Assembly: GCF_000582535.1 (NCBI RefSeq)
Contig: NZ_CP006932.1
Location: 120,001-152,000 of the forward strand
Source: Candidatus Saccharimonadota bacterium
GTDB lineage: Bacteria > Bacillota_I > Bacilli_A > Mycoplasmatales > Hepatoplasmataceae
Length of the DNA stretch: 32,000 nucleotides
Reading direction: 5' to 3'
The number at the start of each line of letters is the position of its first letter. The stretch's first letter is position 1. This document shows positions 17,001 through 24,821 of this stretch, one piece after another. The notes beneath the pieces are model-generated. The model worked only from the letters and a program-made list of their open reading frames with translations, had not been told where the DNA came from and searched no databases. Both the position numbers and the translations under genes were made by a program.

Positions 17001-19640
17001 ATGTATGAAAATAATATTGCCCTTGAGCAATTAATTATTAATAAAGATTTTAGTTCGATAGAAGATGCTTTAAAAGAAATTGCAAATCTTTTAAAAACAA
17101 ACAATCTTATTAAAGATCAGAATAAAGCATTTCAAAATCTTTTAGCAAGAGAAAAGCAAATTTCAACTGGAGTTGGTGATGGTATTGCCATTCCTCATGC
17201 TGAAATAGAAGATCTTTTGGAACCTAAAATTGCTGTTATTAGAACAAAAAAAGGAATTGATTGAAAATCAATTGATGGTAAAAATGTTAATTTAATAATA
17301 GCTATTTTGGTTCCTGCTACAAATCGTGATAAGCATTTTGAAATACTTACAAAATTGTCAAGTTCACTTGTTGATCCAAAAAATATTGAAAAATTCAGAA
17401 AAGCTAATGCAAAAGAGCTTGTTAGTTATATTGAAAATAATATTTTAAAAGATCAAGTAGATGAAAATTCTGATGAAAAAAATAATAGTGTAGAAAAAAA
17501 AATAGATCGTAAAGAGGTTTTTATTGTTGGGATTACAACTTGTCCTACTGGGGTTGCTCATACTTTTATGGCAGCAAAAGCTTTAGAACAAGAAGCTCCT
17601 AATCATAATATTAGATTAAGAATTGAGAAACAAGGACAGATGACAAGAGATCAGCTGAAAGCAAGTGAAATTGCTGAAGCTGATTATGTTTTGCTTGCAA
17701 TTGGAAAAGGGATCGATGATCCAGAAAGATTCAATGGTAAAAAAATTTATCAAGTTCAGATTGCAAAAGCAATGGTTGAACCTGGTAAAGTATTAGAAGA
17801 TACAATTAAAAATGCCCGGATTAAAACACAATCGGGGGGGGGATCAGAAGCAACTGAAATAAAAGCTGTTGGTGAAAAGAAAAGTTTTAATGAAGGACCA
17901 ATCAGACATTTATTATCAGGAATTTCATATATGATTCCTTTTATTGCCTTTGCGGGAATTTTATTGGGATTAACAACAGCATTTGGATATGATATTGGAT
18001 TTACAAATGCAGATGGAATTATAGATCCAACAAATCCTTTAAATCAAACAACTGAATCATTTGCTCCTCAAGGTTATGCTGCTCTGGCAATTAGTAATCT
18101 TGCGGGAATGGGATTTACGTTATTCGTACCGATTCTTGGAGGATTTATTGGAGTTTCGATCGCAGGTCGAAAAGCACTAGCTCCTTCAATGATGCTTTCA
18201 CTTGTATTAAATGATGCTAGTGGAACTAGTGTATTTAATTATCAAGAAGGTAGATTTGGTGGGTTTGATCCAAATTCAAATCCGGTTGCTTTAGGATTTT
18301 TTGGAGCAATTGCTGCTGGATATCTTGTAGGTTATTTAATTTTATGATTTACAAAATATACAAATAAAGTTGAAAATCAAGCATTTCAAACAATTCTTCC
18401 ATTAATTATAATTCCATTACTATTTACATTTATTCCTTGAGTATTTTTTGCATTTATTGGATATTTACCACTTTATTGATTAGGTGTAGGATTAAATGAT
18501 CTTATTAATATCTTAATTGATGTCAATTTACTATGGATGGTCGGGGCAATTTTAGGAATGATGATTTGTTTCGATCTTGGGGGACCTGTTAATAAAATGG
18601 CAATGGTAATCGCTGCGTTATTTTTAGCTCCTGGAGCAAGTTATCTTCCACTTCTTAATGGAGTAGCTGCAGTTTGTGTTGCAATTCCTCCTATGATTTT
18701 AGTATGAGCAGCTTATGCTGGACCATTACTTGGATTTAGAATGGATGAAGATGACAAAGTTAATGCTACAAGTGCTGGAATAATGGGATTTTTTGGAGTA
18801 ACAGAGGGATCAATTCCTTTTGCTGCAAAAGATCCAAAAGTTTATATGCCTTCATTTATGATTGGAGGATTCTTTGCAGGAATGATTGCAATCTTTACTG
18901 GAGTAGGTAATTCTGTTGCTTTATTTGGTGGACCTATAATTTATCTTGCGGGAGGAATGGGACAATCTCCTGATCTTGGTGGACAAATAATGTCTACTGA
19001 TTATGCTTATGCTTTACTTTATTTCATTCCGCTTATAATCGGTTCATTTATTGGATTTTTAATGGTTAGTTTATTAAATAAGGTTTATAGTAACAAAAAT
19101 AATAAATTAAGTTACGAATTAAAAAAAGATTTAAAAAGTGATAAGAAAAAACAAACAAAAGGAATTAAAGTAGAATTAAAAGGATTTAAAAAAGATTTTA
19201 AAAAAGCAAAAATAGATCAAAAAGAATATCAGAAAAAAGAATTAGAATTGAATAATAAACTTTCTTTAATTGAGAAAAAATATCAAGAGAATTTTGATAA
19301 ATTAACACAATATGATGATGATTTTAAAAAATATGTTGCTGATAATATTTCAAATGCAAAAAAACAATTCTTAGATCAAAAGGAACAGTTCAAAAAAGAA
19401 ATTTTAGATTATAAAGCTAAAATTAAAGAACTTAAAAATCAAAAAAAAGCAATCAATAAAGAAGAAACAAAAGAATATCAAGATTTAAAAGATAAGATAA
19501 AAGATTACAAAAAATTAATAGAAGCAGATAAAAGTAAAATAAGCGATTTACATTTCAAATATTTGAATAAAGAATTTGCAAATACAAAAAAATTAGAGTA
19601 TCGAAAAAAATTAAGCAATTATCTTGTAATTAATGTATAA
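17001..19640 (+). CDS. fruA: PTS fructose-family enzyme IIABC component with a C-terminal Lys-rich coiled-coil extension
   Basis: Track ORFs 17001-17264, 17307-18347 and 18741-19640 share one frame and join through TGA=Trp, giving 879 aa. EIIA-2 motif GVGDGIAIPHA, EIIB motif GITTCPTGVAHTFMAA, then a multi-TM EIIC. RBS AAGGGAGGG lies upstream. Specificity (fructose versus mannose) cannot be decided from sequence. Confidence 0.9.
17834..17842 (+). repeat. G9 homopolymer inside the PTS EII gene (EIIB-EIIC linker, encodes SGGGS)
   Basis: Direct reading of atcGGGGGGGGGatc at 17834-17842. It stands out in a genome otherwise nearly devoid of G/C runs. Confidence 0.95.
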
Positions 19641-19663
19641 TAAGTTTGTAAAAGTAATTTAAA

Positions 19664-19689
19664 GCAATCACGAAAGTGATTGTTTTTTT
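19664..19689. terminator. Rho-independent terminator between the convergent PTS gene and the minus-strand operon
   Basis: Stem CAATCAC (19665-19671), loop GAAA, stem GTGATTG (19676-19682), then T7 (19683-19689). It lies 24 nt after the PTS stop and 17 nt before the stop of the 194-aa minus-strand gene. Confidence 0.75.
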
Positions 19690-19706
19690 ATTTAAAATAT
19701 ATTTTT

Positions 19707-20291
19707 TTATAAATCTTCTTTATCATAAATCAAAAATTCAATTGTTTTTAAAGTATCTATAGAAACTATTCTTTTATAATTTATATTTAATTCATCTCCT
19801 ACATTAGATATAAAATTAAAATCTTCGAATAAATTTAAAATTTCTAAATAAATTAAATTATTTGATTCTTTTTCTGATTCAAAATCTAAATCTAAATTAT
19901 TATTAATTTTAAAATAATCAATAATTTTCTTTAAATTTTTATAATAATAAGAATTATCTTTTATAATTGATTTTTTAGTTAAATTTAATAATATAAAAAT
20001 ATTTAAAAGAATTTCATTATTAATATTTTTATTTGTAATTAATTTTAATTTATTATTTTTATCTAAAATTGTTTTTAATTCTTTAATTTCTTTTTTAAAT
20101 TTTGATATTTCTTCATCTTTATCTTTTAATTCTTTTTTTAAATGTTTTACTAAGTCATCAGATGAAAAATAATTTTTTACATTTTTTTTTAATTTCCATA
20201 TTTTTTTATTATTTTCAGTATTTGCTTCAACACTGGAATTATTATCTGGTGAATTTTTAATTTTTTTTAAAAATTTAATTTTAAAAAACAT
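19707..20291 (-). CDS. Hypothetical protein (194 aa), third gene of the ATPase-peptidase operon
   Basis: Intact ORF. The ATG at 20291 is 2 nt after the peptidase stop (20296-20294). Central Lys/Glu-rich helix (KHLKKELKDKDEEISKFKKEIKELKTILDK). No recognisable domain. Contains an A9 tract (plus-strand T9 at 20182-20190). Confidence 0.6.
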   Translation of the reverse strand: MFFKIKFLKKIKNSPDNNSSVEANTENNKKIWKLKKNVKNYFSSDDLVKHLKKELKDKDEEISKFKKEIKELKTILDKNNKLKLITNKNINNEILLNIFILLNLTKKSIIKDNSYYYKNLKKIIDYFKINNNLDLDFESEKESNNLIYLEILNLFEDFNFISNVGDELNINYKRIVSIDTLKTIEFLIYDKEDL

Positions 20292-20293
20292 AA

Positions 20294-22417
20294 TTAATTA
20301 TCCAATTCTTGTTCTAAATTTAATTCTAGATTTTTTGTTTCGATTTCTAATTTTAATTCAAATTTGTTATTTATAAATTTATTATAATATTCTTTTGAAT
20401 TTAAATTTTCACTTAAATCTTCTACCGTTATATATGAATAAAATTCAATTTCTTTAGAATCATCAAAATGCTCTCTATAATTTCTAGTAAAATTTATTAT
20501 AAATTCAGAAATGTTATATCTAGTTTTTCTTAAATCTATAATAAATGAATTTATTCTTTGATATTTTCCAAAATCATTAACAAGATTTTTTTCGTATCTC
20601 ATAAATTCTCCATTTTTAATATCTATTTTACCTATTATTTCTTTTCCTGAAGATATACTTTGTAATTTTTCATTTGAGGAATTAAAATATTGAAAACTTC
20701 CAATAACATTACTTTCTACTTTTTCTAATCCTCTTTCAAAATTTAAAGATGAATTAGAAATAATTGTTATGTAAATTTTAAAATTATTTGAATTATTTGG
20801 TAAAGGTATTTTTTTAACTTTAAAATGTCTTGAATCTATTTTTTCAAAAAAATAAATACTAAAGTATTTATTATTATTATTAATATGATCAAAATTTGCT
20901 TTTGATCATATTCCGTTACCATATAATTCAAAATTTTTATTATTAAAATTATTATTAATCATTGAATTATTTATTATTAAAATTTCAGTTTTTTTTATTA
21001 ATTCTTTTTTATTTAGTGAATTTAAATTGTAAAAATTTGTTTTCCATATTTTTTTTAAAATATACTCAAAATTTCTAGCTAAATTAACAGCTGAAATTGA
21101 AGTACCACTTTTTTTAAAAAATTCTCCAGCAGAATATACAATTACTTTTTGATCTTCATAATCTCCTCCTCCAAAAAGTGATAAATCTGGTTTATATCCA
21201 AAAAGATTTTTTCAACCTTTTTTAGAATAATTTGTTTTTGTATTATCTAAATTTATTGAATTAACTGTTAAAGAAAAAAAAGAATCAGAAGGAGGTAATA
21301 AATAATTTTTATTTTGATTTACATATTCATCTGCATTTCCTGAGGAAATAATAATTTTTATATCGTATATAATTTGTAATTTATCTAAAAATTTAGCAAA
21401 TTCTGAAGTTAGACTTTCTTTAGGATTTATTTCTGTAATTTGATTTATTGATAAAATTCAAACTTTTATTTCATTGTGATATTTTTTAATTCCATATTCA
21501 ATTCTTTTTTTTATTTTTTCTAATGTTTCTTTGTTTTTTTCATCTCTACTTATTATCGGTATTAAAGTAACTTCAAAATTATTTTTAATTCCATCTATTG
21601 ATTTATCTGTTCATGAATTAACATTTAAGCCATTAATTAATAAAAAAGCCATCGATTCTCCATGAGAAATATTATTATAATCTCTATCTAATATTTTCAA
21701 ATTTTCTTCATATTCTTCATCTATTTTTAATCAATTTTTATATTTTTTAATTAATTCATTTTTATTTTTATAAGAAATTGTTGTATCAAATAATCCTATT
21801 TTTAAATCATTATTTTGAAATTTAGGTAAATTAATATCTTCTAATGACAGATCATTAATTTGTAATCCTTCTTCATCGGTTTGTCCTTTGAATTTATCTT
21901 TAAAATTATTATTATTAAATTCTTCTTTATCAAAATTTTCTACGGTTAAAGAAATATTTTTTAAATATAAAATAGAAATACTTTTTAATTCTCTTGAAAT
22001 TAATTTTATTTGATCAATTTTAGTTATAGGAAAAGAATGATTATAATTATCTATTCCTTCAATTATTTTTTTAACAAAAGAATTAAATTTATTTTTATTT
22101 TTTAAATTTATTTTATAACGTCTCCCAATTAGCATTTTTTCTAAATTAAAATTTTTTCTAAAATAAGCAAAACCGGGAAATTCTAAAAATTCTAAAAATA
22201 ATTTATCAAATGATAGAGATTTTGACGGGAATCTATTAAAATTTATATATAAATATTCATCATTTAATTTAATTTTTTCTAATAATGAAATTAAAATTTT
22301 TTTAATTTTTTTCAATTCTGATTCATTTAAATCTTCTGAACCTCCTTTACCAAAAATTTTTTCAATATTATCAATAGGTATTTTAATTTTATATATATTA
22401 CTCATAATTTTTTCCAT
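20294..22417 (-). CDS. S8 (subtilisin-like) serine peptidase, IetS-like. The frame is disrupted as sequenced (possible pseudogene, phase-variable gene or homopolymer sequencing error).
   Basis: Under code 4, track ORFs 21731-22417 and 20294-20602 share one frame.
- That frame has no TAA/TAG between them except TAA at 21310-21308.
- Subtilase motifs appear in the order D-H-N-S.
- Asp: KIGLFDTTIS, codon 21787-21785.
- His: NNISHGESMAF, codon 21664-21662.
- Asn: IIISSGNADEY, codon 21336-21334, found only in the +1 frame.
- Ser: KKSGTSISAVNLA, codon 21100-21098.
- Segment A (22417-21308, 369 aa) is an intact ORF.
- Segment B (21307-20294) has no ATG, TTG or GTG before 20962. Confidence 0.75.
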
Positions 22418-23471
22418 TTATTTCTTTACTTATTTTTTCTCTTGTTTTTTTAGTGAATTTATTTGATATATAAATTTCCAAATCTTTTAGAGACATTTTA
22501 TATTTATTTTTTCAATCATAAAAAATTTTTAAATTTTTATTATTTAAATTAATTTTTATTCTATTTTTATTTAAAATAAATAAATTTTTATCAAATATAA
22601 TTTCTATTAAATCATTAGAATCTTGTATTTTTGATTTTATTTCAAATGGACTCATATTAATAAAAATCTCATTATATAAAAAATCAAAAAATTTTTTTGA
22701 AAATAATTGATTTTTTTTGGTATCAGAATTAATATTTTTAGATAAATTTTTAATAATTAATTGTTTTTTAATTAAATGTATTAAATCATTGCTTGAATAT
22801 ATATCGAAATTTATTTTTAATTTAAATCTTCTAAGTAATGCTTCATCTATTTGATTTTTTAAATTTGTGGCTGCAATTAAAATTATATTTTCTGGTAGTT
22901 CATCAATTATTTGCATAAATTCAGTTATTAATCTATTAATTTCATTGATATCTTTATCATTAAATCTTTTTCCAAATAATGTTTCAACTTCATCAATATA
23001 ATATAAGTTATATCTTTTAGAATTGAAATTAAAAATATTATTTAAATTTTTAATTGATAAACCTAACTTTGAATCTAAAATTTCAGATGCTTTAATTTTT
23101 AAAAAGCTAAAATCTTTATTATGTTGTTTTAAATTATTAATTATTTCTTCAATAAAAGATGTTTTTCCTGTTCCTGGCTTTCCATACAAAAGAACTGTGT
23201 TTTTTGTTTTTTTTCCATATAATGTATCTATAATTTCAATTTTATAATTATTTATTTCTTTAGGATATATATTTTTATTTAAATTAGAAGAAAAAGATGG
23301 TTTAAAAGATGTTGAATTATTTATTATTTTTTCCAAAATTGAAATTCATTCTTTTTCATTATTAATCTTTTTATTTAATAATTCTTTTTCGAAAAATGTA
23401 CTTAAATTAAATTTATTTTGAATTTTAATTAAAAATTCAATAAAATCATTATTTGTTATTTTTTTATTCAT
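22398..23471 (-). CDS. AAA+ ATPase (classical AAA clade), IetA-like
   Basis: Under code 4 the track ORF 22512-23336 extends in both directions, giving 357 aa.
- It runs upstream to ATG 23471-23469 through TGA 23348-23346.
- It runs downstream through TGA 22514-22512 to TAA 22400-22398.
- Walker A: LLYGKPGTGKTS (23183-23160).
- Walker B: LYYIDEVETLF.
- Sensor 1: LIAATN.
- Arg-finger region: IDEALLRRF.
- It overlaps the peptidase start by 20 nt. Confidence 0.85.
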
Positions 23472-23481
23472 ATTTTTATTA

Positions 23482-23621
23482 TATAAAAATGGTGGTAAAA
23501 AGTATAAAAATGGTGGTAAAAAGTATAAAAATGGTGGTAAAAAGTATAAAAATGGTGGTAAAAAGTATAAAAATGGTGGTAAAAAGTATAAAAATGGTGG
23601 TAAAAAGTATAAAAATGGTGG
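23482..23621. repeat. Perfect 21-bp tandem repeat TATAAAAATGGTGGTAAAAAG, 6 full copies plus a 14-bp partial copy
   Basis: Direct reading. Units start at 23482, 23503, 23524, 23545, 23566, 23587 and 23608 (partial). It lies in the divergent intergenic region, 10 bp from the ATPase ATG. There is no C on the plus strand anywhere in the array. Confidence 0.97.
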
Positions 23622-23679
23622 TTTTTATGCAATTATTAATTTTATAATATAAATGTTATAATTTTAAAAATTATATAAA

Positions 23680-24207
23680 ATGGAAAATAAAACAGAAAAT
23701 AAAACAGAAAATTTTACAAAGGTTTTAAATGTAATTAATAATTACAATTTTAAAAACCCTGAAAACAAAAAATTGGTAAATGAATCATTTGAAAAAGTTG
23801 TTAATAATTTAGAAAAATTTGCTTATGAAAAAGAAGAAAAACAAGAAATAAATTTTGAAAACGTAAAAAAAATGATTTTAAAATTTATTAATGGATTTTT
23901 AAATAATTTCATGGAAGAAAAATTAAAAAAAGAACATTTAAATGATTATAAAAATTTAAATTCAATTCCAGAAAAAATTAATTTTTTGGCACAAAATCAA
24001 TATTTTGGTTATGATAGCGAAATTAATGAAGGACTATATTATCTTTTTGTAAAAGGGTCTTCAAATAATAAAGATGTAGCAAAAAAATTAATTTTAATAA
24101 ATTCAATTTATCATATCTTTAATTTGCTTTGTTGATTCTTTAATATTAATTCTAAAAAAGCAAAAAAAGAATTAAATTTAAGTAAATATTTTAATTCAGA
24201 AAAATAA
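23680..24207 (+). CDS. Hypothetical protein (175 aa)
   Basis: ATG at 23680, MENKTENKTENFTK... It continues through TGA 24133-24135 to TAA 24205-24207. No recognisable domain. Divergent from the ATPase operon. TATAAT-like hexamers at about 23644 and 23657. Confidence 0.55.
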
Positions 24208-24233: not shown

Positions 24234-24440
24234 ATGTCTACAGGATTAAGTATTTTTTTTGGTTTTGTATTTTTTGTTTTAATAATATCTTTAGTAATTT
24301 TTTTAAAAAGACATAAACAAGCAAAAAAAATTAGAAGAGATGAAAGAATAAGAATAAATGAAAGAAATAAACAAATTAGAAGAGATGAAAGAATAAGAAT
24401 TGAAGAACAAAATAAAATGGAAGAAAATATTGAAAAATAA
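24234..24440 (+). CDS. Hypothetical small single-TM protein (68 aa) with an Arg/Lys/Glu-rich repeated tail
   Basis: RBS AGAGGGA lies upstream. N-terminal TM LSIFFGFVFFVLIISLVIFL, then a duplicated IRRDERIRI segment. A strong terminator follows. Confidence 0.55.
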   Translation: MSTGLSIFFGFVFFVLIISLVIFLKRHKQAKKIRRDERIRINERNKQIRRDERIRIEEQNKMEENIEK

Positions 24441-24559: not shown

Positions 24560-24787
24560 ATGTTCGGATTTAGTGGACCTGATTGATTTGTAATAACAAT
24601 CTTAATAATCGCATTCGCACTTTCTTTTTCTATCTCACTTTTATTTGATTGATCAAAAATATTAAGATTTGAAAAAAAAGAAACAACTATTGGTATCTTA
24701 GTTTCAATTGTTTTTTCTATTGCCCTTTCTGTTTTATTAACTTTTTTTGTCTTAATATTGACTAATCCAATTTTTAATGCTTTTTAA
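24560..24787 (+). CDS. Hypothetical small membrane protein (75 aa, two TM segments, visible only under code 4)
   Basis: RBS TAGGAGAAG then ATG at 24560. MFGFSGPDWFVITILIIAFALSFSISLLFDWSKILRFEKKETTIGILVSIVFSIALSVLLTFFVLILTNPIFNAF*. Two TGA=Trp. Confidence 0.5.
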
Positions 24788-24821
24788 TTAGAGTTATATT
24801 AAAAAATATTTAAGGAATACT

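What the first reader, a model, noticed from the sequence alone, without database searches (positions are those of the whole stretch)
19707..23471. Hidden three-gene operon: AAA+ ATPase, S8 subtilase and an unknown 194-aa protein (IetAS-like module in a code-4 mollicute)
The standard-code ORF track shows only unrelated-looking fragments here. With TGA read as Trp, three tightly coupled minus-strand genes appear.

**Genes**
- A 357-aa classical AAA+ ATPase (22398-23471) with Walker A GKPGTGKT, Walker B YYIDEVE, sensor-1 AATN and LLRRF.
- A roughly 707-aa protein (20294-22417) carrying subtilase motifs in the canonical D-H-N-S order.
- A 194-aa coiled-coil protein of unknown function (19707-20291).
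- The ATPase stop overlaps the peptidase start by 20 nt. The third gene starts 2 nt after the peptidase stop.

**Context**
- This is the only multi-gene minus-strand block in a window otherwise co-oriented on the plus strand.
- It lies between the PTS gene and secA, bounded by a hairpin terminator.
- It is visibly even more AT-rich than the flanking core genes.

**Interpretation**
- From memory, an AAA ATPase followed by an S8 protease is the architecture of ietA/ietS. That pair was described as a plasmid stability / toxin-antitoxin-like module on Agrobacterium pTiC58 and later reported as the anti-phage system IetAS.
- The mechanism of that family is still poorly understood.
- This version differs in three ways: it is highly diverged, it carries an extra third gene plus about 200-aa N-terminal and about 270-aa C-terminal regions of unknown function on the protease, and it uses TGA-Trp codons (two in the ATPase, five in the peptidase).
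- Those TGA-Trp codons mean it is adapted to, or was acquired from, another code-4 organism or its mobile element.
- I know of no characterised example in Mollicutes.
Basis: partly seen in the sequence, partly recalled or inferred. Interest (0 to 1): 0.85.

Follow-up and report, generated by a model that had tools for sequence, protein, structure and literature searches.

The report
IetAS toxin–antitoxin defence module in Hepatoplasma
This is a very divergent but intact copy of the known IetA/IetS ATPase–protease toxin–antitoxin and anti-phage module, plus one orphan gene, sitting in a strain-variable defence slot of the woodlouse gut symbiont Candidatus Hepatoplasma crinochetorum, so it is a new member of a known kind.

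Summary
Read with TGA as Trp, the minus strand carries three coupled genes: a 357-aa AAA+ ATPase, a 703/707-aa S8 protease and a 194-aa ORF.

The window is Candidatus Hepatoplasma crinochetorum Av. The genes are already annotated in GenBank as an S8 subtilisin-like protein and hypothetical protein X271_00141.

PADLOC profiles match both large proteins (IetA 4e-30, IetS 4e-32). The ATPase motifs and the protease D-H-N-S residues are kept.

The protease's N- and C-terminal regions are normal for the 700–780-aa IetS family. They are not additions.

The nearest relatives are only about 30% identical. Every relative whose locus I read uses in-frame TGA and has an adjacent ATPase. None has the third gene.

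A mollicute example has been characterised. In Mycoplasma mycoides capri the protease T133 is toxic and the ATPase A132 neutralises it.

New here: the 3.9-kb block fills a variable slot between fruA and secA. Sister strains have that slot empty or filled by GmrSD-like, AbiL-like or helicase-type defence genes.

The 194-aa gene has no detectable homologue. A perfect 21-bp × 6.7 repeat lies upstream of ietA.

Verdict: a real IetAS-family module and a new member of a known kind, of modest interest.

The parts
22398..23471 (-). ietA-like AAA+ ATPase, 357 aa, the presumed antitoxin or regulator. Walker A is at 23160-23183, Walker B at 22983-23003, sensor-1 at 22863-22874 and the RRF motif at 22824-22838.
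   Evidence: Pfam AAA scores 1.4e-23, PADLOC IetA 4.3e-30 and NCBIfam IteA 8e-31. The motifs are conserved in an alignment with seven IetA relatives at 25-27% identity.
20294..22417 (-). ietS-like S8 serine protease, the presumed toxin or effector. It is 707 aa from the first ATG, or 703 aa from the ATG at 22405. Catalytic codons: D211 at 21785-21787, H252 at 21662-21664, N361 at 21335-21337 and S440 at 21098-21100.
   Evidence: PADLOC IetS scores 4e-32 over residues 192-674. D, H, N and S are invariant in a 36-sequence alignment. The family profile hits subtilisins in the PDB at 5e-19. The AlphaFold2 model has pTM 0.72 and its best Foldseek matches are subtilases. Pfam PF00082 gives no hit.
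19707..20291 (-). Orphan 194-aa ORF (GenBank X271_00141). It starts 2 nt after the ietS stop, is predicted to be mostly helical, and has no known function.
   Evidence: The chance of an open frame this long is 3.6e-7, and GC1>GC2>GC3 is 0.21/0.12/0.04. The only hit in the 5.8-billion-protein word-index search was itself. It matches no table-4 ORF in any related locus. Pfam, PADLOC, NCBIfam and PHROGs give no significant hit. The AlphaFold2 model has pLDDT 40.
23482..23622 (.). Perfect 21-bp tandem repeat, 6.7 copies (unit TATAAAAATGGTGGTAAAAAG). It ends 10 nt upstream of the ietA start codon and lies inside the strain-specific insert.
   Evidence: Tandem Repeats Finder reports 100% matches, score 282. 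The unit occurs nowhere else in the window and 0.01 matches are expected by chance. Each unit gives a weak -35/-10-like match on the minus strand. A public assembly contig breaks inside this array.
19695..23630 (.). Approximate limits of the strain-specific insert of about 3.9 kb. It holds the three genes and the repeat array, between the fruA terminator and the promoter region of the conserved 171-182-aa gene.
   Evidence: Comparison with empty sites in Ca. H. scabrum (L008, 162-bp spacer) and SRR22386049 (L013) sets the limits. GC is 16.2% against 23.9% elsewhere.
19661..19686 (.). Hairpin terminator of fruA. It can also read as a weaker terminator for the third gene on the minus strand.
   Evidence: The terminator scan found 3 sites against 0.2 expected. 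An equivalent hairpin follows fruA in every strain compared. The minus-strand fold has z = -2.1.
17001..19640 (+). fruA (PTS EIIABC-Fru), the conserved left flank of the variable slot.
   Evidence: It is 100% identical to EIIABC-Fru of Ca. H. crinochetorum Av. Orthologues at 82-89% identity flank the slot in the other strains.
23677..24207 (+). Conserved gene of unknown function, the right flank of the slot. It is 176 aa here and 171-182 aa in sister strains.
   Evidence: It is present next to the slot in four sister-strain loci (L008, L009, L010, L013). It is 32% identical (E 1e-15) to the N-terminal 178 aa of the GmrSD-like protein that occupies the slot in strain Ps.

Best explanation
The block is a chromosomal copy of the IetA/IetS two-component toxin-antitoxin and anti-mobile-element module. 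It was acquired horizontally, most likely from another code-4 mollicute or one of its mobile elements. It landed in a slot between fruA and secA that works as a defence-gene hotspot in Hepatoplasma.

**Proposed mechanism (inferred from characterised relatives, not shown here)**
- The two genes are translationally coupled, so IetA and IetS are made together.
- In uninfected cells the AAA+ ATPase IetA keeps the cytoplasmic subtilase IetS inactive.
- When a phage or plasmid disturbs this control, or when the module is lost, IetS is freed.
- Free IetS cleaves cellular or invader proteins. The cell stops growing or dies, and the invader does not spread.

**Accessory features**
- The 194-aa gene is carried on the same insert and is translationally coupled to ietS. 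Its role is unknown. My best guess is an accessory regulator or a passenger gene.
- The perfect 21-bp repeat array directly upstream of ietA probably contains or modulates the operon promoter.
For: **Shown here**
- Both large proteins match IetA and IetS profiles.
- ATPase motifs and the protease D-H-N-S residues are intact.
- The ATPase-protease order and the overlapping junction match every relative read.
- The block is absent from Ca. H. scabrum and from a further strain.
- The same slot holds other defence genes elsewhere: a GmrSD/SspE-like gene in strain Ps, an AbiLi-like pair in ERR14048305, and a PDC-S37/Hhe-like helicase in ERR14656831.
- Relatives sit beside type I and type III restriction-modification genes.
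- The four closest relatives whose loci I read (ranked 1, 2, 7 and 8 in the exhaustive search) and the M. hyorhinis homologue carry 4-10 in-frame TGA codons.

**From the literature**
- In M. mycoides capri, the subtilisin-like T133 is toxic in E. coli, B. subtilis and M. capricolum, and A132 neutralises it.
- In IetAS the protease is the toxin and the ATPase the antitoxin, and protease activity is needed for anti-phage function.
Against: - No experiment exists on this locus.
- The proteins are extremely divergent. The best non-self hit among 1.84 billion representatives is 30% identical at E 8e-17.
- Pfam S8 does not hit. NCBIfam scores are far below the equivalog cut-offs: 107 against 510 bits and 62 against 900 bits.
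- The genome paper reports no phage, plasmid or insertion sequence in this genome. A current defence role is therefore unproven.
- The third gene and the repeat array have no counterpart in any known IetAS locus.
Confidence: 0.75

Rival explanations
1. The block is a purely selfish addiction module. It would be the stability cassette of a plasmid or integrative element that integrated and then decayed. It persists because losing it kills the cell, and it has no present anti-phage role. The 21-bp repeat array could then be a remnant of that element, for example an iteron-like or regulatory array.
For: - ietAS was first described as a plasmid-stability toxin-antitoxin system.
- The M. mycoides pair behaves as a toxin-antitoxin system.
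- Relatives lie on Macrococcus, Clostridium perfringens and Enterococcus plasmids, in one case next to RepB.
- The Av genome has no detectable mobile elements.
- The insert carries a repeat array and has lower GC than its surroundings.
Against: - The same slot holds bona fide defence genes in sister strains. That pattern is typical of defence hotspots rather than of plasmid integration scars.
- No replication, recombinase or integrase gene is on the insert.
- The repeats are 100% identical head-to-tail copies, unlike the spaced, imperfect iterons of plasmid origins (own knowledge).
- This reading is not exclusive of the best explanation.
Confidence: 0.15
2. The block is a tripartite IetAS variant in which the 194-aa protein is an obligatory third component, such as a sensor, adaptor, inhibitor or chaperone. 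This would parallel the helicase of ietHAS.
For: - The gene starts 2 nt after the ietS stop, on the same insert.
- It is a genuine ORF with a coding-like codon-position GC gradient.
- A three-gene IetAS variant has been validated experimentally, and there the third gene also restrains toxicity.
Against: - No homologue of the 194-aa protein was found anywhere.
- None of the seven related IetAS loci read has a coupled downstream gene or a similar ORF.
- It bears no resemblance to the SNF2 helicase IetH.
- The structure model carries no information (pLDDT 40).
Confidence: 0.15
3. The protease is a secreted or surface enzyme that serves the symbiosis, for example in host digestion or adhesion, and the ATPase is its chaperone. 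Hepatoplasma peptidases have been suggested as possible nutritional factors.
For: A Hepatoplasmataceae comparative study speculated that peptidases of unclear role might benefit the host.
Against: - The N-terminus has no hydrophobic signal peptide or lipobox (sequence).
- The protein matches IetS over about 480 residues and is paired with IetA.
- The block is missing from sister strains that live in the same kind of host.
- Its neighbours in relatives are restriction-modification genes.
Confidence: 0.03
4. The module is a decaying, non-functional relic. Its extreme divergence would reflect relaxed selection under AT mutation pressure.
For: - The three genes have the lowest GC in the window, at 12-18%.
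- Pfam S8 gives no hit.
- The nearest relative is 30% identical.
Against: - All three frames are intact across 1,260 codons at a composition where stop codons arise at about 7% per codon.
- All catalytic and nucleotide-binding residues are retained.
- An identical protein sequence was recovered from two independent public read sets.
Confidence: 0.07

Closest known systems
IetA/IetS (ietAS) of Agrobacterium tumefaciens pTiC58 and the IetAS anti-phage system catalogued in PADLOC and DefenseFinder (NCBIfam IteA/IteS)
   Same: - Two overlapping genes in the order AAA+ ATPase then S8 protease of about 750 aa.
- PADLOC IetA and IetS profiles match at 4e-30 and 4e-32.
- Catalytic and ATPase motifs are kept.
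- The genes lie in an accessory, defence-associated position.
   Different: - Very divergent: NCBIfam scores are 107 and 62 bits against cut-offs of 510 and 900, and Pfam S8 gives no hit.
- It uses TGA for Trp.
- It is chromosomal, in a 657-kb symbiont genome.
- An orphan third gene and a 21-bp repeat array are attached.
Mycoplasma mycoides subsp. capri GM12 TAS 132/133 (A132 AAA-ATPase antitoxin, T133 subtilisin-like toxin)
   Same: - It is a mollicute, code-4, ATPase-plus-subtilase pair that its authors explicitly likened to ietAS.
- The protease is toxic in three hosts and the ATPase neutralises it.
- It is the best functional precedent for this locus.
   Different: - I could not obtain the M. 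mycoides sequences, so direct similarity to the Hepatoplasma proteins was not measured.
- The passages I read describe it as a two-gene system, with no third gene.
Mollicute IetAS homologues found here: Mesomycoplasma hyorhinis NCTC10121 (WP_014335435/WP_014335434) and four uncultured code-4 genomes (L006, L014, L015, L016)
   Same: - The same gene order with an ATPase of 315-349 aa and a protease of 701-765 aa. The genes overlap by 8-17 nt in four of the five loci.
- In-frame TGA codons are present.
- PADLOC IetA and IetS hits for L003 and L006.
- L003 and L016 sit next to restriction-modification genes.
   Different: - They are only 22-26% identical (global alignment) to the Hepatoplasma protease.
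- The M. hyorhinis protein and the four metagenomic relatives (precomputed Pfam marks) still hit Pfam Peptidase_S8.
- None has the 194-aa gene or the repeat array.
ietHAS (Liu-DS4), an IetAS variant with an SNF2 helicase as an essential third component
   Same: It is a three-gene IetAS derivative in which the extra gene is required for function and restrains toxicity.
   Different: The third component there is a large SNF2/DrmD-like helicase found in E. coli. Here it is a 194-aa helical orphan with no detectable domain.

Membership tests
IetAS (PADLOC/DefenseFinder definition) | A protein matching an IetA (AAA+ ATPase) profile | tested here: met
   PDLC02196 IetA scores 4.3e-30, covering protein residues 42-331 of 357 and profile positions 75-353 of 374. 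Three further IetA models score 7.5e-29 to 2e-19.
IetAS (PADLOC/DefenseFinder definition) | A protein matching an IetS (S8 protease) profile | tested here: met
   PDLC02197 IetS scores 4e-32, covering protein residues 192-674 of 707 and profile positions 246-723 of 749. PDLC02199 scores 8e-22.
IetAS (PADLOC/DefenseFinder definition) | The two genes are adjacent and co-oriented, with the ATPase first | tested here: met
   The genes overlap by 20 nt, or by 8 nt from the second ATG. Every relative read has the same order.
IetAS (functional definition) | Intact S8 catalytic residues (Asp, His, Ser and the oxyanion Asn) | tested here: met
   D211, H252, N361 and S440 fall in invariant columns of a 36-sequence family alignment.
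IetAS (functional definition) | Intact Walker A, Walker B, sensor-1 and arginine motifs in the ATPase | tested here: met
   GKPGTGKT, IDEVE, AATN and LLRRF align with the same motifs in seven IetA relatives.
IetAS (functional definition) | The protease is toxic and the ATPase neutralises it | not testable with these tools
   This has been shown only for relatives: the M. mycoides pair and the plasmid and E. coli systems.
IetAS (functional definition) | Protection against phage or plasmid invasion | not testable with these tools
   The only support is indirect. The block occupies a slot that holds other defence genes in sister strains.
NCBIfam IteA_antiphage / IteS_antiphage equivalogs | Whole-protein score above the curated cut-off | tested here: not met
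   IteA scores 107.5 bits against a cut-off of 510, and IteS 62.5 bits against 900. These are the best hits but lie far below equivalog level.
Pfam Peptidase_S8 (PF00082) | Score above the gathering threshold | tested here: not met
   No hit appears even at E ≤ 1, whereas the M. hyorhinis homologue scores 1.8e-32. S8 identity rests on three other results: the family profile against PDB subtilisins at 5e-19, the structure-model matches and the invariant catalytic residues.
Pfam AAA (PF00004) | Score above the gathering threshold | tested here: met
   The score is 84.2 bits against a threshold of 21.2, E 1.4e-23, with the full-length domain at residues 93-223.

The most novel reading that the evidence does not exclude
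The Hepatoplasma block could be a distinct tripartite IetAS variant with two added features.
- The orphan 194-aa protein would be an obligatory third component, such as a sensor, an adaptor or a second antitoxin.
- The perfect 21-bp repeat array upstream of ietA would act as a copy-number (phase-variable) switch that sets expression of a toxic protease system in a minimal-genome symbiont.

If so, this very small and divergent system could be a convenient handle on the still-unknown trigger and substrates of IetAS.
Probability: 0.12. Interest if true: 0.55.

Novelty: new member of a known kind. Interest (0 to 1): 0.3.

Why it matters
- **Defence repertoire.** This adds IetAS to the known defences of Hepatoplasmataceae. 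The two Hepatoplasma genome studies I searched by keyword list only CRISPR-Cas and restriction-modification.
- **IetAS in mollicutes.** At least five further code-4 lineages carry the module, besides M. mycoides.
- **A variable slot.** The fruA–secA interval is a strain-variable defence hotspot in a 0.6-Mb symbiont genome that was described as free of mobile elements. These streamlined symbionts therefore still exchange immune or addiction cargo.
- **Annotation practice.** Defence-system annotation of mollicutes has to use translation table 4. Pfam alone can also miss highly AT-skewed family members.
- **Limits.** None of this changes the understanding of IetAS itself, whose mechanism remains open.

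Tried and rejected
- **Wasted genome scan.** I scanned the genome collection with SecA to fetch Hepatoplasma relatives. It returned only two irrelevant loci, because lysine-rich word patterns swamped the search. I recovered synteny through fruA homologues and exact-protein look-ups instead.
- **Word-index searches.** Searches with the protease and with the 194-aa protein each found only the query itself. The exhaustive HMMER search was needed to reach relatives of the protease.
- **PDB by sequence.** The single protease sequence gave nothing in the PDB. Only the family profile worked. No IetS structure has been solved.
- **The 194-aa protein.** The AlphaFold2 model was uninformative (pLDDT 40). 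Pfam, PADLOC, NCBIfam and PHROGs gave no significant hit.
- **Other null searches.**
  - Rfam found nothing in the window.
  - blastn of the insert against plasmids found nothing.
  - tblastn against phages gave only two weak hits in unannotated gut phage contigs.
  - The one supplementary file held as text for the Hepatoplasmataceae comparative paper contained no subtilase entry.
- **Readings considered and rejected.** I rejected a housekeeping AAA-protease role because the block is strain-specific. I rejected a secreted digestive protease because there is no signal peptide and the gene is paired with IetA.


Full report
**1. What is in the sequence**

The window has 23% GC. Under translation table 4 it reads as a run of mostly plus-strand housekeeping genes: thyA, folA, prfA, glyA, the atp operon, fruA, secA and amino-acid permeases.

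- 22398-23471, 357 aa, with two in-frame TGA codons.
- 20294-22417, 707 aa, with five TGA and one TGG.
- 19707-20291, 194 aa, with no TGA.

The quoted ATPase motifs are present.

The junctions are as described: a 20-nt overlap between the first two genes and a 2-nt gap before the third. A second ATG at 22405 is the GenBank start (703 aa). It gives an 8-nt ATGAGTAA overlap, the same length as in three of the relatives.

At this base composition the chance of an open frame is 3.6e-7 for 194 codons and 3e-24 for 707.

**2. Source and annotation status**

The protease is 100% identical to 'Peptidases S8 Subtilisin-like protein' of Candidatus Hepatoplasma crinochetorum Av, on a contig of 657,101 bp. 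The 194-aa ORF is 'hypothetical protein X271_00141'. fruA is that strain's EIIABC-Fru. The operon is therefore hidden only when the standard code is used.

Keyword searches of the genome paper and of a later Hepatoplasmataceae comparison found no mention of these genes. Those papers list only CRISPR-Cas and restriction-modification as defences.

**3. Family assignment: the ATPase**
- Pfam AAA at 1.4e-23.
- PADLOC IetA at 4.3e-30, with three further IetA models.
- NCBIfam 'anti-phage ATPase IteA' as best hit at 8e-31.
- Aligned with seven IetA relatives it is 25-27% identical. It keeps Walker A, the ILDSKLG motif, Walker B, the sensor-1 asparagine and the RRF motif.

**4. Family assignment: the protease**
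- PADLOC IetS at 4e-32, over residues 192-674 against profile positions 246-723 of 749.
- NCBIfam IteS as its only hit, at 2e-17.
- No Pfam Peptidase_S8 hit at E ≤ 1. The Mesomycoplasma hyorhinis homologue scores 1.8e-32 on the same model.
- An exhaustive HMMER search of 1.84 billion representatives found 152 relatives. Nearly all full-length ones are 700-780 aa. The best is only 30% identical, at E 8e-17.
- In a 36-sequence alignment, D211, H252, N361 and S440 (707-aa numbering) fall in invariant columns. So does K66 in the N-terminal domain.
- The profile of that alignment hits PDB subtilisins, from 5e-19 for the best entries down to about 1e-6 for subtilisin BPN'.
- An AlphaFold2 model has pTM 0.72. 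It shows a confident S8 core at roughly residues 180-500 and a C-terminal β-sandwich at roughly 510-665. The N-terminal region is poorly defined. Its best Foldseek matches are Tk-SP, Kex2, furin and subtilisins.

The protein is a very divergent S8 protease that appears catalytically competent and has the standard IetS architecture.

NCBIfam equivalog cut-offs are not met (107 against 510 bits, 62 against 900 bits). I therefore file it as an IetAS-family member at the PADLOC level, not as an equivalog.

**5. Relatives and their context**

Homologues on plasmids of Macrococcus, Clostridium perfringens, Enterococcus and others are two-gene ATPase + S8 pairs.

M. hyorhinis has the pair overlapping by 8 nt, next to type III restriction-modification methylase genes.

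I read the loci of four of the closest database relatives (L006, L014, L015, L016). In each, an AAA gene lies immediately upstream of the protease gene and overlaps it in three of the four. L016 lies beside type I restriction-modification genes.

The four metagenomic relatives and the M. hyorhinis gene each carry 4-10 in-frame TGA codons at 21-29% GC. The plasmid copies from Firmicutes have none.

It also shows that IetAS is not rare in mollicutes.

**6. A functional precedent in mollicutes**

A study of Mycoplasma mycoides subsp. capri GM12 tested the pair A132 (AAA-ATPase) and T133 (subtilisin-like protease) and likened it to ietAS:
- T133 stopped the growth of E. coli.
- It could not be established in B. 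subtilis.
- It cut transformation of M. capricolum about 100-fold from its own promoter, and gave no transformants at all from the spiralin promoter.
- The complete pair transformed normally.

So the statement that no mollicute example is characterised is wrong. I could not retrieve those sequences to measure their similarity to the Hepatoplasma proteins.

[quoted passage not shown] It also states that the protease is the toxin and the ATPase the antitoxin. It validates a three-gene variant with an SNF2 helicase, ietHAS.

**7. The block is accessory and sits in a defence hotspot**

fruA orthologues led to the same region in other Hepatoplasma genomes. The flanks are conserved: atp operon, DUF2130, manA and fruA on one side; a 171-182-aa gene, a gene of about 76 aa, secA and the permeases on the other. 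The interval between fruA and the 171-182-aa gene differs from strain to strain:

| Strain or sample | Locus | Slot content |
|---|---|---|
| Ca. H. scabrum | L008 | empty, 162-bp spacer |
| SRR22386049 | L013 | empty |
| Ca. H. crinochetorum (GCA_001179805.1, taken to be strain Ps) | L009 | 834-aa GmrSD/SspE/HEC-06-like gene, 1e-22 |
| ERR14048305 | L010 | AbiLi-like ATPase (3.8e-32) plus a 236-aa gene |
| ERR14656831 | L012 | PDC-S37/Hhe-like helicase gene (8e-19), cut by the contig end |
| Strain Av | this window | ietA, ietS and the 194-aa gene |

Comparison with the empty sites puts the insert at about 19695-23630. It includes the third gene and the repeat array. It excludes the fruA terminator hairpin, which follows fruA in every strain compared. 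The insert has 16.2% GC against 23.9% elsewhere, and its three genes have the lowest GC in the window.

**8. The third gene**

It is a real ORF with a coding-like GC gradient across codon positions (0.21, 0.12, 0.04). Nothing else could be learned about it:
- The word-index search of 5.8 billion proteins returned only the protein itself.
- It matches no table-4 ORF in any related locus, and none of those loci has a coupled downstream gene.
- Four profile libraries gave no significant hit.
- The structure model is uninformative (pLDDT 40, mostly helical).

It may be an accessory component, as in the ietHAS precedent, or a passenger gene. I put the former at roughly 0.15.

**9. The repeat array**

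A perfect 21-bp × 6.7 tandem array lies at 23482-23622 and ends 10 nt upstream of the ietA start. The unit occurs nowhere else in the window. Among the fetched loci it appears only at the end of a public contig that breaks inside the array. Each unit gives a weak promoter-like match on the minus strand, but promoter-like matches are not enriched in this AT-rich DNA: 54 were found against 50 expected. Its role is unknown. A promoter or operator, a copy-number switch and an element remnant are all possible.

**10. Mechanism and verdict**

*Shown here:* family membership by profile, intact active sites, a coupled gene arrangement, and accessory status inside a slot that collects defence genes.

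*Inferred from relatives:* IetA restrains the toxic protease IetS. Disturbance by an invader, or loss of the module, frees the protease and causes growth arrest or death.

*Unknown:* the trigger, the substrates, the role of the 194-aa protein and the role of the repeats.

This is a new and very divergent member of a known kind. Its claims of unusual architecture and of no mollicute precedent were not.

Noticed in passing
window 23482-23622: A perfect 21-bp × 6.7 tandem repeat (unit TATAAAAATGGTGGTAAAAAG) lies in the divergent intergenic region and ends 10 nt upstream of ietA. Each unit has a weak -35/-10-like match on the minus strand. A public Logan assembly contig (L007) ends inside the array. 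It could be a promoter or operator array or a copy-number-variable element.
   Followed up: partly
window 23677-24207 (+); L009 12751-15255: The conserved gene of unknown function that flanks the variable slot (176 aa here, 171-182 aa in sister strains) is 32% identical (E 1e-15) to the N-terminal 178 aa of the GmrSD-like protein that fills the slot in strain Ps. The flank gene therefore has a paralogue fused to a defence nuclease.
   Followed up: partly
L008, L009, L010, L012, L013 (region downstream of fruA): The fruA–secA interval is a strain-variable defence hotspot in Hepatoplasma. It is empty in two genomes. The others hold a GmrSD/SspE-like gene, an AbiLi-like pair and a PDC-S37/Hhe-like helicase gene.
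   Followed up: yes
L010 12797-13507 (-): A 236-aa protein lies downstream of the AbiLi-like ATPase and has no PADLOC or Pfam hit. It may be a divergent AbiLii partner.
   Followed up: partly
L006 3309-4859: In an 864-kb circular code-4 metagenomic genome, the IetAS pair is directly preceded by a DUF6119 protein of 516 aa. It has no PADLOC hit and may belong to the same island.
   Followed up: no
window 24234-24440 and 24568-24800 (+): Two short ORFs lie between the 176-aa gene and secA. The first contains a 45-bp × 2.1 repeat at 24324-24417 that encodes a repeated RRDERIRI-type motif. Sister strains have a gene of about 76 aa at this position.
   Followed up: no
window 17001-19640: FruA carries a lysine- and glutamate-rich, coiled-coil-like C-terminal tail of about 180 aa after the EIIC domain. 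The five orthologues at 82-89% identity, presumably Hepatoplasma, are the same length at 879-882 aa; more distant relatives vary.
   Followed up: no
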